From: Acidobacteriota bacterium
Lineage (GTDB): Bacteria > Acidobacteriota > Vicinamibacteria > Vicinamibacterales > CAVVIG01
Direction of reading: 5' to 3'
Length of the DNA stretch: 52,010 nucleotides
NCBI GenBank assembly: GCA_046728115.1
Contig: JBKPDW010000561.1
Location: 1 to 52,010 of the forward strand
Program-made: the position numbers and the translations under genes
In this document: piece after piece, positions 24,938-28,091 of the stretch
How the letters are laid out: the number at the start of each line of letters is the position of its first letter
Numbering within the stretch: the stretch's first letter is position 1
The notes under the pieces: generated by a model
What the model was told of the DNA's origin: nothing
Seen by the model: the letters and a program-made list of their open reading frames with translations, nothing else
The model's database searches: none

Positions 24938-25732
24938 TCAGAGGCTCCACTGGCCGTTTTCGTCGACCGCCACCCCCTCTGCCCTGAGCTTGTCGAGGTG
25001 CGCGCGAACATTTTCGCGCGCCGCCGGCATCAGCGCGGAGTCGAGACCATCATAGATGGATTCGGCGATCGCCTCCACCGTGTGGCGGCCGTCTCGTAAC
25101 GCGGCCACGACCTGATGTTCACGCATGCGCCGGTGCTCGAGGTGGGCCGTGATGACACGTGCCGGATCGTCGATCCTCGGACCATGGGCTGGCAGGATGA
25201 TGCGCGGCCGCAAGTCGAGCAGCCGTTCGAGCGATCGCATATAGCTCGTCAGATCTCCGCCGCGGCTCGAATGAATCATCACGCTGCCGCCTGAAATCAT
25301 CAGGTCGCCGGTGAATGCGGTGCCACTGGCTTCATCCCAGAAAGCCACGTGATCCGGCGAGTGTCCCGGCGTATGGAGGACGGTCAGCGCGTCGCCGCCG
25401 ATTGTGACGCACTCGCCGTCTGAGAGCGGCCGCCAGGTGACGTTGTACCGAGCGTCCTCGCCAGGCCACGGATATTTGGCAAACGTGGCGGCGGGGTGCC
25501 GGGAGGCGATGGCAGAGGCGCCCGACGCGTGATCCGCGTGCCCGTGCGTGACCAGCACGTGGCCCAGCCGGCAATGCTGTCGCGCGAGGTGGGCGTCGAT
25601 ATCGGTCAGGTGTTGTTCGTGTCCGACGCCGGCATCAACGAGCGCAATCGATCGGCCGGTGCCGAACAAGTAGGTGTTGTTGCCAGCCCCGGTCATGGGG
25701 CTGGGATTGTGCGCGTCGAGGAGCGTCGGCAT
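24938..25732 (-). CDS. Metallo-beta-lactamase fold hydrolase (LACTB2-like)
   Basis: NPSPMTGAGNNTY, THGHADH, TPGHSPDH, GD, PAHG. Confidence 0.9.
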   Translation of the reverse strand: MPTLLDAHNPSPMTGAGNNTYLFGTGRSIALVDAGVGHEQHLTDIDAHLARQHCRLGHVLVTHGHADHASGASAIASRHPAATFAKYPWPGEDARYNVTWRPLSDGECVTIGGDALTVLHTPGHSPDHVAFWDEASGTAFTGDLMISGGSVMIHSSRGGDLTSYMRSLERLLDLRPRIILPAHGPRIDDPARVITAHLEHRRMREHQVVAALRDGRHTVEAIAESIYDGLDSALMPAARENVRAHLDKLRAEGVAVDENGQWSL

Positions 25733-25747
25733 GAGAGGGGGTCGGAT

Positions 25748-25760
25748 GGGGTCAGACCCC
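25748..25760. repeat. REP-like palindrome GGGGTCAGACCCC
   Basis: 6-bp inverted repeat around one central base; partial second copy GTCAGACCCC at 25789-25798. Confidence 0.5.
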
Positions 25761-25789
25761 AGCCAGGAGCCCGCGCACGGCGGGCGGCG

Positions 25790-26005
25790 TCAGACCCCTC
25801 ACGTCCCGCCGAAGCCGATTGTCACGCCGTCGCCGTCGACAATGACCGGCACGGCGCGCCGGCCATTGCTGTAGCGAAGCATTCGCTCGAGATCGGCCGG
25901 CTGTTTCTTGACGTTGATGTATTCGAACGGAACATGCCGCCGCTCATAGTCGTCACGGGCGGCTTGCGTGTAGGGTCAAGTGTCCTTGCCGAAGATGTAG
26001 ACCAT
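25790..26005 (-). CDS. Glutaredoxin-like selenoprotein with two UGA(Sec) codons (UXX-star type)
   Basis: Manual translation MVYIFGKDT-U-PYTQAARDDYERRHVPFEYINVKKQPADLERMLRYSNGRRAVPVIVDGDGVTIGFGGT-U-GV-stop; first TGA (25976-25978) is at the redox-Cys position of the glutaredoxin CPY motif; VP cis-Pro and IGF motifs; SECIS-like hairpins after both TGAs; not in ORF track. Confidence 0.85.
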
Positions 26006-26006
26006 G

Positions 26007-26024
26007 GGTCCATTGTAATGGACC
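26007..26024 (-). promoter_or_regulatory. -10 box TACAAT embedded in a perfect palindrome (candidate operator)
   Basis: GGTCCATT-GT-AATGGACC; TACAAT (26017-26012) lies 6 nt before ATG 26005. Confidence 0.55.
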
Positions 26025-26037
26025 GTCCGCGCTCAGA

Positions 26038-26463
26038 CTATTCGGTAGTGTGCGGTTGGCGTCGACATTCTTCGAGCAGCCTCCTCGTCTCGGACGACAG
26101 CGGCAGCGATTTCGCCGCACTGTAGTCGTAGCTGACCATGACGGTCTTGCCGCTCGCAATCAGACGCTCGCCCGGCACGGTGACGATTTCGTACACCAGC
26201 GCAAAGCTCGACGTCCCGATGTCACCGACGTTCAATCGCACTTCGAGCTCGTCGCCGAAATGCGCAGGCGCGCGATAGTCGCACTCTGCCCGCGCGAGGA
26301 TAACGCGCGTGTGCGGTGACGGCGCACCGGTGAGATCGCGCCAGAACGTCAAACGACACTGCTCGCGGTACGTGAAGTACACCGCGTGGTTCACATGACC
26401 CATCGCGTCGCAGTCTCGAAATCGCACCGCCAGGCGATGGCGGTACGCCCACTCGGTCGGCAT
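26038..26463 (-). CDS. Acyl-CoA thioesterase (4HBT/YbgC hot-dog fold)
   Basis: VRFRDCDAMGHVNHAVY, CDYRAPAHFGD. Confidence 0.9.
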   Translation of the reverse strand: MPTEWAYRHRLAVRFRDCDAMGHVNHAVYFTYREQCRLTFWRDLTGAPSPHTRVILARAECDYRAPAHFGDELEVRLNVGDIGTSSFALVYEIVTVPGERLIASGKTVMVSYDYSAAKSLPLSSETRRLLEECRRQPHTTE

Positions 26464-26469
26464 GGGAGG

Positions 26470-26476
26470 TAGAATA
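26470..26476. promoter_or_regulatory. Overlapping bidirectional -10 elements (TAGAAT + / TATTCT -)
   Basis: TAGAATA in the 23-bp gap between divergent thioesterase and thyX starts. Confidence 0.55.
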
Positions 26477-26486
26477 CCCGACCACC

Positions 26487-28091
26487 GTGGACACGTTCAC
26501 ACCGGAAGAAGCACGCGCGCTCGCGCCGTATTTCACCAACACCGCGAAGCCAATCTTCGCGCTGAGGAATCTGCCCGAAACCGTCAAGGGTGCGCTCTTC
26601 GCGCGCTACTCGCGATCGGCGAAATCGGTGCGACGCCTGTTCCTCGACGAATTCCTCGGGCAGATCCAGAGCGACGCGGCGCCGGCGATGAATACGGTCG
26701 GCACGGCGCGCGCGGAACAACTCTACGCGCGGGTGCTGAGCGAATACGGCGACGACTCGGTTGCACAGCTGGGTGGCGCGCACATCGCGTGCGAAGGTGT
26801 CTCCAACGTTTTGACGAAAGTGCTCGAATGGGGACGTCTGATGGCGTACCTCGAGCAATCCACCCGCTACGTTCCGTACACGAACCGGCAGGACCAGCGC
26901 TGGCAGTACCACGTGCCGGAGGAACTCGACGGTTCGCCGGTTCGCGAGGCATTCATCAGCACGCTGGACGCAGCGTTCGAGACGTACGCGAAATGGATCC
27001 CAGCGATGGAAGCGCACTTCCGTGCGAAGTACCCGAAGTCTCCCGGCGACTCCGAGGGCGTGTACAAGTCCGTCATCCGGGCGAAGGCGCTGGACACGCT
27101 CCGCGGCCTTCTGCCCGCCGCCACCACGTCGAACGTCGGACTCTTCGGCTCGGGCCAGGCCTTCGAGGCGCTGCTCCTCCGCATGTTCGCCCATCCTCTC
27201 GCTGAAGTTCGCGCCTGCGCGAGCCAGATGCTCGTTGAGCTGCGGCACACCATTCCCGCATTTCTTACGCGCGTCGATCAACCGGATCGCGGCGGCCACT
27301 GGACAAACTATCTGGCTGCAACGCGCCACGACGTCCTCGCAACCGCTGCGGCGATCACCGACGACATTGCCGCCGAAGAGCGCGGCGAGGTGACGCTGAC
27401 CGACTTCGATCCGGAGGGTGAGATCAAGGTCGTCGCAGCGGCGCTCTATTCGGCGTCGGCGCTGGCGGACGATCAACTGCTCGCTCTGGCCCGTCGGCTG
27501 TCGGCTGACGATCGTGCGGCGATTCTTCGCGCGTACGTCGGCAACCGCGCGAACCGCCGTCACAAGCCAGGCCGCGCATTTGAACGGACTCACTACCGCT
27601 TCGACGTCCTCGCGGACTATGGCGCTTTCCGCGATCTCCAGCGCCATCGTCTCCTGACGATCGAGTGGCAGCCGCTGAGCACACGACACGGATACGTCGA
27701 GCCGGCGGCCATCGAAGATGCCGGCGCGCTCGCCGACTGGCGCGCAGTGATGGATCGCTCGGCGGCGATGTACGAACAACTCGTGGCCCACGACCTGCGG
27801 GACGTCGCTCCGTACGCCGTGGTGATGGCGTATCGCGTGCGGTTCTACATGGACATGAACGCACGCGAGGCGATGCATGTGATCGAACTCCGCACCAGCC
27901 CTCAAGGTCACCCCTCGTATCGGCGTGTGTGTCAGCTGATGCACCGCGTGATCGCCGATGTGGCCGGACATCGCGGCATCGCCGCGGCCATGCAATTCGC
28001 CGATCACTCCGAAGTCGAACTCGAGCGGCTCCAGTCGGAACGACGAATGGCGTCGAAGAGACGCGGGGCTCGCGACTCGACGGGGGTTTAG
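26487..28091 (+). CDS. thyX: FAD-dependent thymidylate synthase, long duplicated-domain form
   Basis: ALFARYSRS, YGDDSVAQL, EQSTRY, second repeat FRDLQRHR, ELRT-PQGHPSYR. Confidence 0.88.
   Translation: MDTFTPEEARALAPYFTNTAKPIFALRNLPETVKGALFARYSRSAKSVRRLFLDEFLGQIQSDAAPAMNTVGTARAEQLYARVLSEYGDDSVAQLGGAHIACEGVSNVLTKVLEWGRLMAYLEQSTRYVPYTNRQDQRWQYHVPEELDGSPVREAFISTLDAAFETYAKWIPAMEAHFRAKYPKSPGDSEGVYKSVIRAKALDTLRGLLPAATTSNVGLFGSGQAFEALLLRMFAHPLAEVRACASQMLVELRHTIPAFLTRVDQPDRGGHWTNYLAATRHDVLATAAAITDDIAAEERGEVTLTDFDPEGEIKVVAAALYSASALADDQLLALARRLSADDRAAILRAYVGNRANRRHKPGRAFERTHYRFDVLADYGAFRDLQRHRLLTIEWQPLSTRHGYVEPAAIEDAGALADWRAVMDRSAAMYEQLVAHDLRDVAPYAVVMAYRVRFYMDMNAREAMHVIELRTSPQGHPSYRRVCQLMHRVIADVAGHRGIAAAMQFADHSEVELERLQSERRMASKRRGARDSTGV

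What the first reader, a model, noticed from the sequence alone, without database searches (positions are those of the whole stretch)
25790..26005. Hidden double-UGA glutaredoxin-like selenoprotein missed by the ORF track
Seen: minus-strand frame ATG(26005)-MVYIFGKDT-TGA-PYTQAARDDY...RRAVPVIVDGDGVTIGFGGT-TGA-GV-TGA, filling an otherwise unexplained 305-bp gap between co-oriented genes. Known: glutaredoxin/NrdH folds have the attacking Cys in a CPY/CPF motif after the first strand, a VP cis-Pro and an IG-F/Y motif; here TGA sits exactly at that Cys and the resolving Cys is Thr. The U-x-x-stop tail matches, from my recollection, the UXX-star selenoprotein family. Inference: a 71-aa protein with no Cys and two Sec, potentially cycling an N-terminal/C-terminal diselenide, in a probable acidobacterium. 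Function unknown.
Basis: partly seen in the sequence, partly recalled or inferred. Interest (0 to 1): 0.9.

Follow-up and report, generated by a model that had tools for sequence, protein, structure and literature searches.

The report
Known UXX-star glutaredoxin-like double selenoprotein

Summary
A minus-strand frame runs from ATG 26005 to TGA 25790-25792. It has in-frame TGA at codon 10 (U-P-Y-T) and codon 69 (GGT-U-G-V-stop).

- **Family:** it scores 119.8 bits (cut-off 72), full length, against NCBIfam NF041114 "UXX-star selenoprotein family 1". NCBI already uses that name on Vicinamibacterales homologues.
- **Conservation:** in 28 full-length members from related genomes, codon 69 is TGA in 28 of 28, followed by exactly two codons and a stop. 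Codon 10 is TGA in 19 and Cys in 9.
- **SECIS:** a GC-rich hairpin follows UGA69 in 26 of 28, against 11% of ordinary gene ends. Sixteen of 19 TGA-10 forms share a hairpin 12 nt after UGA10.
- **Sec machinery:** selA, selB and a Sec-containing selD are present. selC is not assembled; its syntenic place falls in a contig gap.
- **Structure:** the AlphaFold model (pLDDT 97) is a glutaredoxin fold. I infer that the tail docks beside the active site.

The most likely mechanism is a Sec10/Sec69 diselenide redox couple; this is inferred, not shown. Novelty is low.

The parts
25790..26005 (-). Coding sequence of the 71-residue UXX-star family 1 glutaredoxin-like selenoprotein, including the terminal TGA at 25792-25790
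   Evidence: NF041114.2, 119.8 bits against a cut-off of 72. One search gives the alignment of 28 members, with 76% mean column identity.
25976..25978 (-). TGA codon 10, the predicted active-site Sec in U-P-Y-T
   Evidence: this position is TGA in 19 of 28 members and Cys (TGC 6, TGT 3) in 9 of 28. No other residue occurs.
25936..25963 (-). SECIS-like hairpin 1, inside the coding region: 5' arm GCCGCC 25963-25958, 16-nt loop CGUGACGACUAUGAGC, 3' arm GGCGGC 25941-25936. The stem starts 12 nt after UGA10.
   Evidence: the same 6-bp stem at the same spacing occurs in 16 of 19 TGA-10 members. The window's own fold is not significant (z -1.12, 28 of 200 shuffles fold as well).
25799..25801 (-). TGA codon 69, the predicted C-terminal Sec in GGT-U-G-V-stop
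   Evidence: TGA in 28 of 28. U-X-X-stop in 77 of 80 further loci, Cys once (L122), Ser once (L118), and one divergent C-terminus (L130).
25769..25785 (-). SECIS-like hairpin 2, in the 3' untranslated region: GCCCGC / loop CGUGC / GCGGGC. The stem starts 13 nt after UGA69 and 4 nt after the terminal UGA.
   Evidence: One search gives -11.2 kcal/mol here. A hairpin of -7.5 kcal/mol or better is present in 26 of 28 members, against 24.5% of shuffles; 11.2% of 1000 ordinary long-frame ends in this genome have one. Stem sequences differ between members while pairing is kept. There is no T-tract, so no terminator is called.
25748..25760 (-). Small second hairpin GGGGUCUGACCCC between SECIS 2 and the next gene. 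Its first 10 bases repeat 25798-25789. Role unknown.
   Evidence: It is also present downstream of the gene in the two same-genus relatives (L041, L042). There are 8 copies in the 8.0-Mb genome.
26038..26463 (-). Upstream co-oriented neighbour: a 4HBT / YbgC-FadM-like acyl-CoA thioesterase
   Evidence: PF13279, 77.8 bits. Adjacent to the UXX-star gene in 16 of 28 and 40 of 80 loci.
24938..25732 (-). Downstream co-oriented neighbour: an MBL-fold hydrolase with a winged-helix tail (glyoxalase-II-like)
   Evidence: Downstream and co-oriented in 10 of 28, plus one on the opposite strand upstream and one remnant. Found in 15 of 80 loci.

Best explanation
This is a real gene for a 71-residue glutaredoxin-fold selenoprotein of the curated UXX-star family 1. 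UGA10 and UGA69 are each read as selenocysteine by SelB, guided by a separate hairpin that starts 12-13 nt downstream. The first hairpin lies inside the coding region and the second in the 3' UTR. The third UGA, six bases after the second, terminates translation. It sits only 4 nt from the hairpin, and in 12 of 28 relatives it is TAG or TAA. The mechanism is inferred. Sec10 (U-P-Y-T) is the attacking residue at the N-terminus of helix 1. The usual resolving Cys is Thr. The Gly-rich tail GGT-U-G-V folds back into the groove beside the cis-Pro (V52-P53), where glutaredoxins hold the Cys-Gly of glutathione. Sec69 can therefore resolve onto Sec10 as an intramolecular diselenide (a selenenylsulfide in the Cys10 forms). 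The protein would then cycle as a very low-potential one-domain redox carrier, with a mobile Sec tail that resembles the C-terminal tail of thioredoxin reductase. My confidence that it is a family member is about 0.97. It is about 0.85 that both UGAs are decoded as Sec, and about 0.45 for the diselenide cycle.
For: Family: NF041114.2 at 119.8 bits against a cut-off of 72, full length, and NF041212 at 103.2 against 66. NCBI names homologues 'UXX-star selenoprotein family 1' (P0024, P0037, P0110). Recoding: TGA/Cys alternation at codon 10 (19 and 9 of 28), and TGA at codon 69 in 28 of 28, followed by two codons and a stop. The two tail codons vary mostly at third positions (GGG/GGC/GGA/GGU and GUC/GUG/GUU), which points to selection on the peptide. 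Hairpins: 26 of 28 after UGA69 reach -7.5 kcal/mol or better (median -12.5), against 24.5% of shuffles and 11.2% of 1000 ordinary gene ends. Loops are mostly CGUGC, CGUGU, GGU or GUU. Sixteen of 19 TGA-10 forms share GCCGCC...GGCGGC at a 12-nt spacer. Machinery in the genome: selD at 354.8 bits with an in-frame TGA of its own, selA at 545.3 bits and selB at 344.4 bits. TGA is the commonest ordinary stop (2560 of 4133 long open frames), so the code is not reassigned. Fold: AlphaFold pLDDT 97.0, pTM 0.85, all 71 residues at 90 or above. Foldseek gives TM 0.79-0.82 to A. fulgidus Grx 3ic4, cGrx1 7c12, NrdH 1h75 and the Grx3-glutathione complex 3grx. Tail docking: DSSP marks two extra two-residue strands, 51-52 and 69-70. 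The residues that would otherwise pair with 51-52 (7-9 or 64-66) are not in strand state, so each is the only available partner for the other. This is my inference. Sec69 is nearly invariant while position 10 toggles between Sec and Cys.
Against: There is no experimental evidence of Sec insertion for any member of the family in what I could read. selC was not found in this assembly. The Rfam best hits are tRNA-Ser and tRNA-Leu. The single aragorn tRNA-SeC call lies inside open reading frames, reads as plausible protein sequence and gets no Rfam match. The relatives' tRNA-Sec finds nothing by blastn. The window's own hairpins are not individually significant: site 1 has z -1.12; site 2 has z -2.22 for 67 nt but +0.99 for 47 nt. 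Some Cys10 forms also carry hairpins at site 1 (L030 at -14.3; L029, L033 and L045 have 5-bp stems at the same spacing), so the contrast is moderate (mean -9.0 against -6.7 kcal/mol). RNAalifold on the MAFFT alignment found no consensus structure. I had no model coordinates, so the Sec10-Sec69 distance was never measured. The one review that I read in passages suggests metal binding as an alternative role.
Confidence: 0.8

Rival explanations
1. It is the same protein with two Sec, but the two selenols act as a chelating pair for a soft metal or metalloid (Hg, As, Cu, or selenium itself) rather than cycling as a diselenide. That would make it a carrier or trap, not an oxidoreductase.
For: [quoted passage not shown] Sec69 is almost never replaced by Cys (1 of 80, 0 of 28). 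That fits a need for selenium chemistry that a simple disulfide exchange would not impose.
Against: No metal-resistance or transport genes lie next to it. The neighbours are a thioesterase, an MBL-fold hydrolase, an M20 dipeptidase and an unassigned 538-residue ORF. The glutaredoxin active-site geometry and the cis-Pro are fully conserved. Two adjacent selenols would in any case oxidise readily to a diselenide.
Confidence: 0.25
2. The tail Sec acts between molecules. Sec69 is a mobile arm that passes electrons, or a bound group, to or from a partner enzyme, or forms a dimer, and never bonds to residue 10 of its own chain.
For: The flexible Gly-rich linker GFGGT is invariant. The thioesterase stays adjacent in two different gene orientations, 22 co-oriented upstream and 18 convergent downstream among 80 loci, which hints at a retained neighbourhood.
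Against: The neighbourhood is confined to Acidobacteriota loci. No locus labelled Deltaproteobacteria, Anaeromyxobacter, Polyangium, Haliangiales, Planctomycetales or Thermodesulfobacteriota has the thioesterase, the MBL-fold gene or the 538-residue ORF. The DSSP of the model indicates that the tail packs on its own chain. No partner was tested.
Confidence: 0.15
3. UGA69 is simply the stop codon. The protein would end at Thr68 as a monothiol or monoselenol glutaredoxin, and the 'G-V-stop' plus hairpin would be an RNA-level feature or a coincidence.
For: Gene callers end the Cys10 homologues there: 68 aa is the commonest length among the 120 listed proteins, and JGI names them 'glutaredoxin 3'. 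There is no direct proof of read-through.
Against: Exactly two sense codons and then a stop follow in 28 of 28 and 77 of 80 loci, with synonymous variation in those two codons. One homologue has Cys at this position (L122). The hairpin has no T-tract and sits at SECIS spacing. NCBI curators model the position as Sec.
Confidence: 0.05
4. It is a decaying glutaredoxin pseudogene with two nonsense mutations.
For: Under table 11 the frame is broken twice (one search lists no ORF for it).
Against: The same two positions are TGA across different families of the order, with 62-86% protein identity to the window and 19 invariant columns. Truly degraded copies look different: L055 and L056 have lost the N-terminal half.
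Confidence: 0.01

Closest known systems
UXX-star selenoprotein family 1 (NCBIfam NF041114; parent subfamily NF041212 'Uxx-star family glutaredoxin-like (seleno)protein')
   Same: The window protein is a full-length match above the curated cut-off. It is about 70 residues long, has a glutaredoxin fold and ends Sec-X-X-stop. Close homologues in Vicinamibacterales MAGs carry this name at NCBI.
   Different: Nothing differs in the defining features. The window protein is the two-Sec form (Sec at codon 10 as well), as are 19 of the 28 members examined here. I could not read whether the primary description (Haft & Tolstoy 2025, cited by PMC13188914; not held) covers the two-Sec form of family 1. The review's table, in the passages shown, lists family 2 with one Sec and the HUGP/GUXX-star fusion with two.
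Sec-containing glutaredoxin of clostridia (UxxC; Kim et al. 2011, cited in PMC13188914, seen only as a reference and a sentence) and its Cys paralogue cGrx1 (PDB 7c10/7c12)
   Same: It shares the glutaredoxin fold, with Sec at the first position of the active-site motif. cGrx1 is among the best structural matches (TM 0.81-0.82).
   Different: Those proteins keep the second active-site Cys (UxxC) and have a C-terminal helix. The window protein has Thr there (28 of 28). It also lacks the last helix and ends in a Sec tail.
C-terminal Gly-Cys-Sec-Gly tail of animal thioredoxin reductase (recalled knowledge, not from a call)
   Same: Both have a Sec two to three residues from the C-terminus on a glycine-rich flexible arm that shuttles to a buried redox centre.
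   Different: There the Sec bonds to the neighbouring Cys and is reduced by a flavin-linked dithiol of the partner subunit. Here there is no flavin domain, and the proposed partner is the glutaredoxin active-site residue of the same small chain. Insertion uses a bacterial SECIS immediately after the codon, not a distal eukaryotic one.
Glutaredoxin-glutathione mixed disulfide (E. coli Grx3-GSH, PDB 3grx)
   Same: The model superposes on 3grx at TM 0.80. The tail U69-G70 is predicted to form a short strand against A51-V52 just before the cis-Pro (inferred). From recalled knowledge, this is where the Cys-Gly of glutathione lies.
   Different: The 'ligand' is the protein's own C-terminus and carries Se instead of S. 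Whether glutathione is used at all is unknown.

Membership tests
NCBIfam NF041114 UXX-star selenoprotein family 1 | HMM score above the curated cut-off over the full profile | tested here: met
   119.8 bits against a cut-off of 72; residues 2-71 on profile positions 1-70 of 70.
NCBIfam NF041114 UXX-star selenoprotein family 1 | C-terminus is Sec-X-X-stop | tested here: met
   TGA-GGG-GTC-TGA. Conserved in 28 of 28 and 77 of 80.
NCBIfam NF041114 UXX-star selenoprotein family 1 | Glutaredoxin-like fold | tested here: met
   PF00462 at 41.2 bits against a cut-off of 22.9; pLDDT 97. TM 0.82 to 3ic4.
Bacterial selenoprotein (general) | The in-frame UGA aligns with Cys in homologues | tested here: met
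   Codon 10: Cys in 9 of 28. Codon 69: Cys in 1 of 80 (L122) and in 0 of 28.
Bacterial selenoprotein (general) | SECIS stem-loop beginning about 10-20 nt after the UGA | tested here: met
   26 of 28 at site 2 against 11.2% of control gene ends; 16 of 19 at site 1. The single-sequence folds of the window are not significant on their own.
Bacterial selenoprotein (general) | The genome encodes selA, selB and selD | tested here: met
   all three score over their curated cut-offs. SelD itself has an in-frame TGA.
Bacterial selenoprotein (general) | The genome encodes tRNA-Sec (selC) | tested here: inconclusive
   selC is not found in the assembly (95.76% complete, 636 contigs). The aragorn hit in C275 is judged false. 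Blastn with the relatives' selC finds nothing. The flanks of selC in both same-genus relatives match the ends of contigs C136 and C464, so its expected place is an assembly gap. Nine related genomes have a tRNA-Sec (their best Rfam hits, confirmed by aragorn).
Bacterial selenoprotein (general) | Selenium demonstrated in the polypeptide | not testable with these tools
   This needs 75Se labelling or mass spectrometry.
Classical dithiol glutaredoxin (C-P-Y-C) | Second active-site Cys | tested here: not met
   Thr13 is invariant in 28 of 28. TIGR02181 scores 38.1 bits against a cut-off of 90.
NrdH-redoxin | Score above the family cut-off | tested here: not met
   TIGR02194 scores 29 bits against a cut-off of 85.75.

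The most novel reading that the evidence does not exclude
The tail T-U-G-V may be a built-in seleno-analogue of glutathione's Cys-Gly. It would dock in the protein's own glutathione groove and form a Sec10-Sec69 diselenide. That would make this the smallest self-contained natural diselenide redox module. Its C-terminal Sec would be chemically irreplaceable (Cys in only 1 of 108 members examined), while the active-site Sec is exchangeable with Cys. A corollary concerns recoding: one hairpin would discriminate between two UGA codons only six bases apart, one read as Sec and one as stop, purely by spacing.
Probability: 0.35. Interest if true: 0.5.

Novelty: already known. Interest (0 to 1): 0.25.

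Why it matters
For annotation, ordinary gene callers miss the two-Sec form entirely and truncate the Cys10 form at 68 residues, naming it 'glutaredoxin 3'. The selenoproteome of soil Acidobacteriota is therefore under-counted unless the NCBIfam models are applied.

For biology, the family is curated but uncharacterised. If the tail-to-active-site diselenide is real, it is a compact natural model for diselenide redox chemistry. It would also be a model for how a bacterial SECIS separates a Sec UGA from a stop UGA two codons later. None of this overturns current understanding.

Tried and rejected
- **RNAalifold on site 2:** run on a MAFFT alignment of the 55 nt after UGA69, it gave no consensus structure, because loop length and spacer vary. 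I replaced it with a per-sequence hairpin scan with shuffles and a genome-wide control. No covariance model was built.
- **Rfam scan of 25400-26400:** at E up to 10 there were only chance-level hits and no SECIS family.
- **Promoter and terminator scan of 25500-26300:** nothing found.
- **selC:** the aragorn tRNA-SeC call, which I first took as selC, was rejected after I read its sequence.
- **Expression:** no RNA holder is listed for this stretch. Only soil-metagenome DNA runs hold part of it, with shares of 0.29 or less.
- **Sec10/Cys10 history:** the tree of 28 proteins needs 3 changes, but only 2 of 25 inner branches are well supported and one origin is not excluded. This is inconclusive.
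- **Neighbourhood as a clue to function:** the thioesterase, the MBL-fold gene and the 538-residue ORF recur only in Acidobacteriota loci, so shared descent explains the pattern as well as shared function does.
- **The 538-residue upstream ORF:** no Pfam hit (even at E up to 10), no NCBIfam hit at E 0.001 or below and no PDB sequence match.
- **Model coordinates:** they are not available in the script box, so the 10-69 distance could not be measured.
- **Literature:** Haft & Tolstoy 2025 is not held. Supplements are closed and may list family 1. BSepDB (PMC13326102) has no mention of UXX. The diselenide search was seen as a listing only.

Full report
**1. The observation**

On the minus strand, ATG at 26005 opens a frame that reads MVYIFGKDT-TGA-PYTQAARDDY...VTIGFGGT-TGA-GV-TGA. 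The three TGAs lie at 25978-25976, 25801-25799 and 25792-25790. Read with TGA as Sec, the product has 71 residues, no Cys and two Sec. The table-11 ORF list has nothing for this frame. The frame fills the 305-bp gap between a thioesterase gene (stop at 26040-26038) and an MBL-fold hydrolase gene (start at 25732), both on the same strand.

**2. What it is**

- The protein matches NCBIfam NF041114.2 "UXX-star selenoprotein family 1" (an equivalog model) at 119.8 bits against a cut-off of 72, over the whole 70-position profile.
- It matches the parent subfamily NF041212 at 103.2 bits against a cut-off of 66.
- It matches Pfam Glutaredoxin at 41.2 bits.
- A search of 5.8 billion proteins found 843 relatives at E of 1e-10 or below. 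The commonest length among the 120 listed is 68 residues, which is where a gene caller would stop at the second TGA.
- JGI calls these proteins "glutaredoxin 3". NCBI calls three of them (P0024, P0037, P0110) "UXX-star selenoprotein family 1" or "UXX-star (seleno)protein family 1", in Vicinamibacterales and other MAGs.
- The review PMC13188914 (passages read) lists UXX-star families and credits Haft & Tolstoy 2025. I could not obtain that paper.

The family is therefore curated, named and in print.

**3. Conservation**

I searched 61 genomes (the window's own and 60 relatives) with NF041114. A match at E of 0.001 or below was found in 33 of 61, and 28 of 61 had a match over the cut-off. I examined 30 loci.

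- Twenty-eight are full length, including the window itself.
- I dropped two, L055 and L056, because they have lost or frameshifted the N-terminal half. Both still end GGT-U-G-[VI]-stop.
- One further over-cut-off copy in G060 had no locus and was not examined.

Results for the 28:

| Feature | Result |
|---|---|
| Codon 10 | TGA 19, TGC 6, TGT 3 |
| Codon 69 | TGA 28 of 28 |
| After codon 69 | exactly two codons, then a stop, in 28 of 28 |
| The two codons | GV 23, GI 2, VV 1, EV 1, AI 1 |
| Final stop | TGA 16, TAG 9, TAA 3 |

Because the final stop is TAG or TAA in 12 members, the third TGA of the window is a true terminator. Nineteen columns are invariant, including G6, K7, P11, T13, V52, P53, G66, G67 and T68.

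A scan of named genomes returned 80 more loci. The pattern used requires Cys at codon 10, so these loci say nothing about that position.

- Most are Vicinamibacterales or other Acidobacteriota.
- Some are labelled Deltaproteobacteria, Anaeromyxobacter oryzae, Polyangium, Haliangiales, Planctomycetales or Thermodesulfobacteriota.
- Seventy-seven of 80 end U-X-X-stop. One has Cys (L122), one has Ser (L118) and one has a different C-terminus (L130) (two of the 77 were classed by eye after my pattern missed them).

**4. Recoding signals**

After UGA69, 27 of 28 members have a simple stem-loop, and 26 of 28 reach -7.5 kcal/mol or better (median -12.5).

- The stem usually starts 10-13 nt after the UGA (range 7-22).
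- Stems of 5-10 bp differ in sequence between members while pairing is kept. Examples are GCCCGC/GCGGGC, GGCUGC/GCAGCC, GACCGCC/GGCGGUC and GAAGCCCG/CGGGCUUC.
- Loops are mostly CGUGC, CGUGU, GGU or GUU.
- The same scan finds such a hairpin in 24.5% of shuffled versions and at 11.2% of 1000 ordinary long-frame ends in this genome.
- The exceptions are L038 (none) and L045 (-7.0).
- There is no T-tract, so the hairpin is not terminator-like.

After UGA10, 16 of 19 TGA forms share the stem GCCGCC...GGCGGC starting 12 nt after the codon. Its 3' arm is made by the Arg-Arg codons. The other three (L044, L047, L053) have weaker or different stems.

The Cys forms average weaker hairpins (mean -6.7 against -9.0 kcal/mol). 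One of them, L030, is stronger, and three keep a 5-bp stem at the same place, so this contrast is suggestive only. The window's own folds are not individually significant: site 1 has z -1.12; site 2 has z -2.22 for 67 nt and +0.99 for 47 nt. RNAalifold on the MAFFT alignment gave nothing.

**5. Sec machinery**

| Gene | Result in the window's genome |
|---|---|
| selD | 354.8 bits, with its own in-frame TGA in ...SCAG-U-ASK... |
| selA | 545.3 bits |
| selB | 344.4 bits |
| selC | not found in the assembly |

Details for selC:

- The Rfam tRNA-Sec search returned tRNA-Ser and tRNA-Leu.
- The one aragorn "tRNA-SeC" (C275) lies inside open reading frames. Its sequence reads like the first membrane helix of an FtsX-type permease (that resemblance is recalled, not tested). 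It gets no Rfam match, while the same-genus tRNA-Sec genes score 61.1 bits.
- Nine related genomes have a tRNA-Sec: their best Rfam hits are confirmed by aragorn as 96-98-nt tRNA-SeC(tca) genes.
- Blastn with these genes finds nothing in the window's genome.
- The flanks of selC in both same-genus genomes match the very ends of contigs C136 and C464, so the gene's expected place is an assembly gap.

TGA closes 2560 of 4133 long open frames, so the code is standard.

**6. Structure and likely mechanism**

AlphaFold2, run with the 28-row alignment and Sec read as Cys, gives mean pLDDT 97.0 and pTM 0.85. The topology is the glutaredoxin β1-α1-β2-α2-β3-β4. Foldseek's best matches are:

- A. fulgidus Grx 3ic4 (TM 0.82);
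- Clostridium cGrx1 7c12 and 7c10;
- E. coli NrdH 1h75 (TM 0.79);
- the Grx3-glutathione mixed disulfide 3grx (TM 0.80).

No member of this family has been solved.

DSSP also marks two extra two-residue strands, A51-V52 (just before the cis-Pro) and U69-G70. The residues that would otherwise pair with 51-52 (7-9 or 64-66) are not in strand state. I therefore infer that the two short strands pair with each other. In glutaredoxin-glutathione complexes this is where the Cys of glutathione lies against the residue before the cis-Pro (recalled knowledge).

The tail would then place Sec69 next to Sec10. With Thr in place of the resolving Cys, the natural cycle is attack by Sec10 followed by resolution by Sec69 to an intramolecular diselenide. 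I could not measure the distance, because coordinates are not exposed.

The review's alternative is that the Sec residues bind metals. It remains open, and I give it about 0.25.

**7. Neighbourhood**

| Gene order in the window | Presence in the 28 loci | Presence in the 80 loci |
|---|---|---|
| 538-residue ORF of no known family | 17 of 28 | 44 of 80 |
| 4HBT thioesterase | 16 of 28 | 40 of 80 |
| UXX-star gene | - | - |
| MBL-fold hydrolase | 10 of 28 downstream co-oriented, plus one upstream on the opposite strand and one remnant | 15 of 80 |
| M20 dipeptidase | not counted | 3 of 80 |

- Among the 80, the thioesterase lies upstream and co-oriented in 22 and downstream and convergent in 18. 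The small gene has evidently flipped in place.
- No locus labelled as a non-acidobacterial group has any of these neighbours.

I treat the neighbourhood as synteny, not as functional evidence.

**8. Verdict**

The observation and the interpretation are both right. The gene is a member of a family that is already curated, with NCBI-named homologues. The points added here are:

- the two separate SECIS-like hairpins;
- the near-invariance of Sec69 against the Sec/Cys toggling at position 10;
- the inferred docking of the tail;
- the selC assembly gap.

Noticed in passing
G000 contig C58:2525-2761 (-), = L024:1456-1692 (-): A second glutaredoxin/NrdH-like ORF of 79 residues with one in-frame TGA in a U-Y-A-C motif (UxxC). 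It scores below every family cut-off; the best are TIGR02196 at 59.5 bits against a cut-off of 88.55 and TIGR02194 at 58.2 bits. It is probably another Sec-glutaredoxin-like protein in the same genome.
   Followed up: partly
G000 contig C414:9198-10121 (+), L001: The selenophosphate synthetase gene itself has an in-frame TGA (...SCAG-U-ASK...), so SelD is a selenoprotein here.
   Followed up: partly
G000 contig C275:9296-9384 (-), L148:1997-2085: Aragorn calls a tRNA-SeC(tca) here. The call lies inside open reading frames, reads as plausible protein sequence and has no Rfam tRNA-Sec match, so it is a false positive. The real selC is expected in the gap between the ends of contigs C136 and C464.
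   Followed up: yes
window 26391-28007 (-): A 538-residue ORF just upstream of the thioesterase, overlapping its start by about 70 nt. It has no Pfam hit (E up to 10), no NCBIfam hit and no PDB sequence match. It is nonetheless conserved at 36-60% identity next to the thioesterase in 17 of 28 and 44 of 80 loci.
   Followed up: partly
window 25748-25760 (-), with a partial direct repeat at 25789-25798: A small hairpin motif GGGGTCTGACCCC lies between the SECIS-like hairpin and the next gene. It is also present after the gene in both same-genus relatives. There are 8 copies in the genome, more than my rough estimate of about 1 by chance.
   Followed up: partly
window 26007-26024 (-): A perfect 7-bp inverted repeat GGTCCAT-TACA-ATGGACC ends one base before the start codon, and no obvious Shine-Dalgarno sequence is present. 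The in-frame 'YNG' read upstream in several relatives suggests that the nucleotides are conserved.
   Followed up: no
L055 (G004:C22) and L056 (G021:C63): These are two degraded copies of the family. The N-terminal half is frameshifted or lost, but the C-terminal ...GGT-U-G-[VI]-stop is intact.
   Followed up: no
L058, L059 and 16 other loci: The UXX-star gene is inverted in place relative to its neighbours (MBL-fold gene on one side, thioesterase and 538-residue ORF on the other). It is convergent with the thioesterase in 18 loci and co-oriented in 22.
   Followed up: partly
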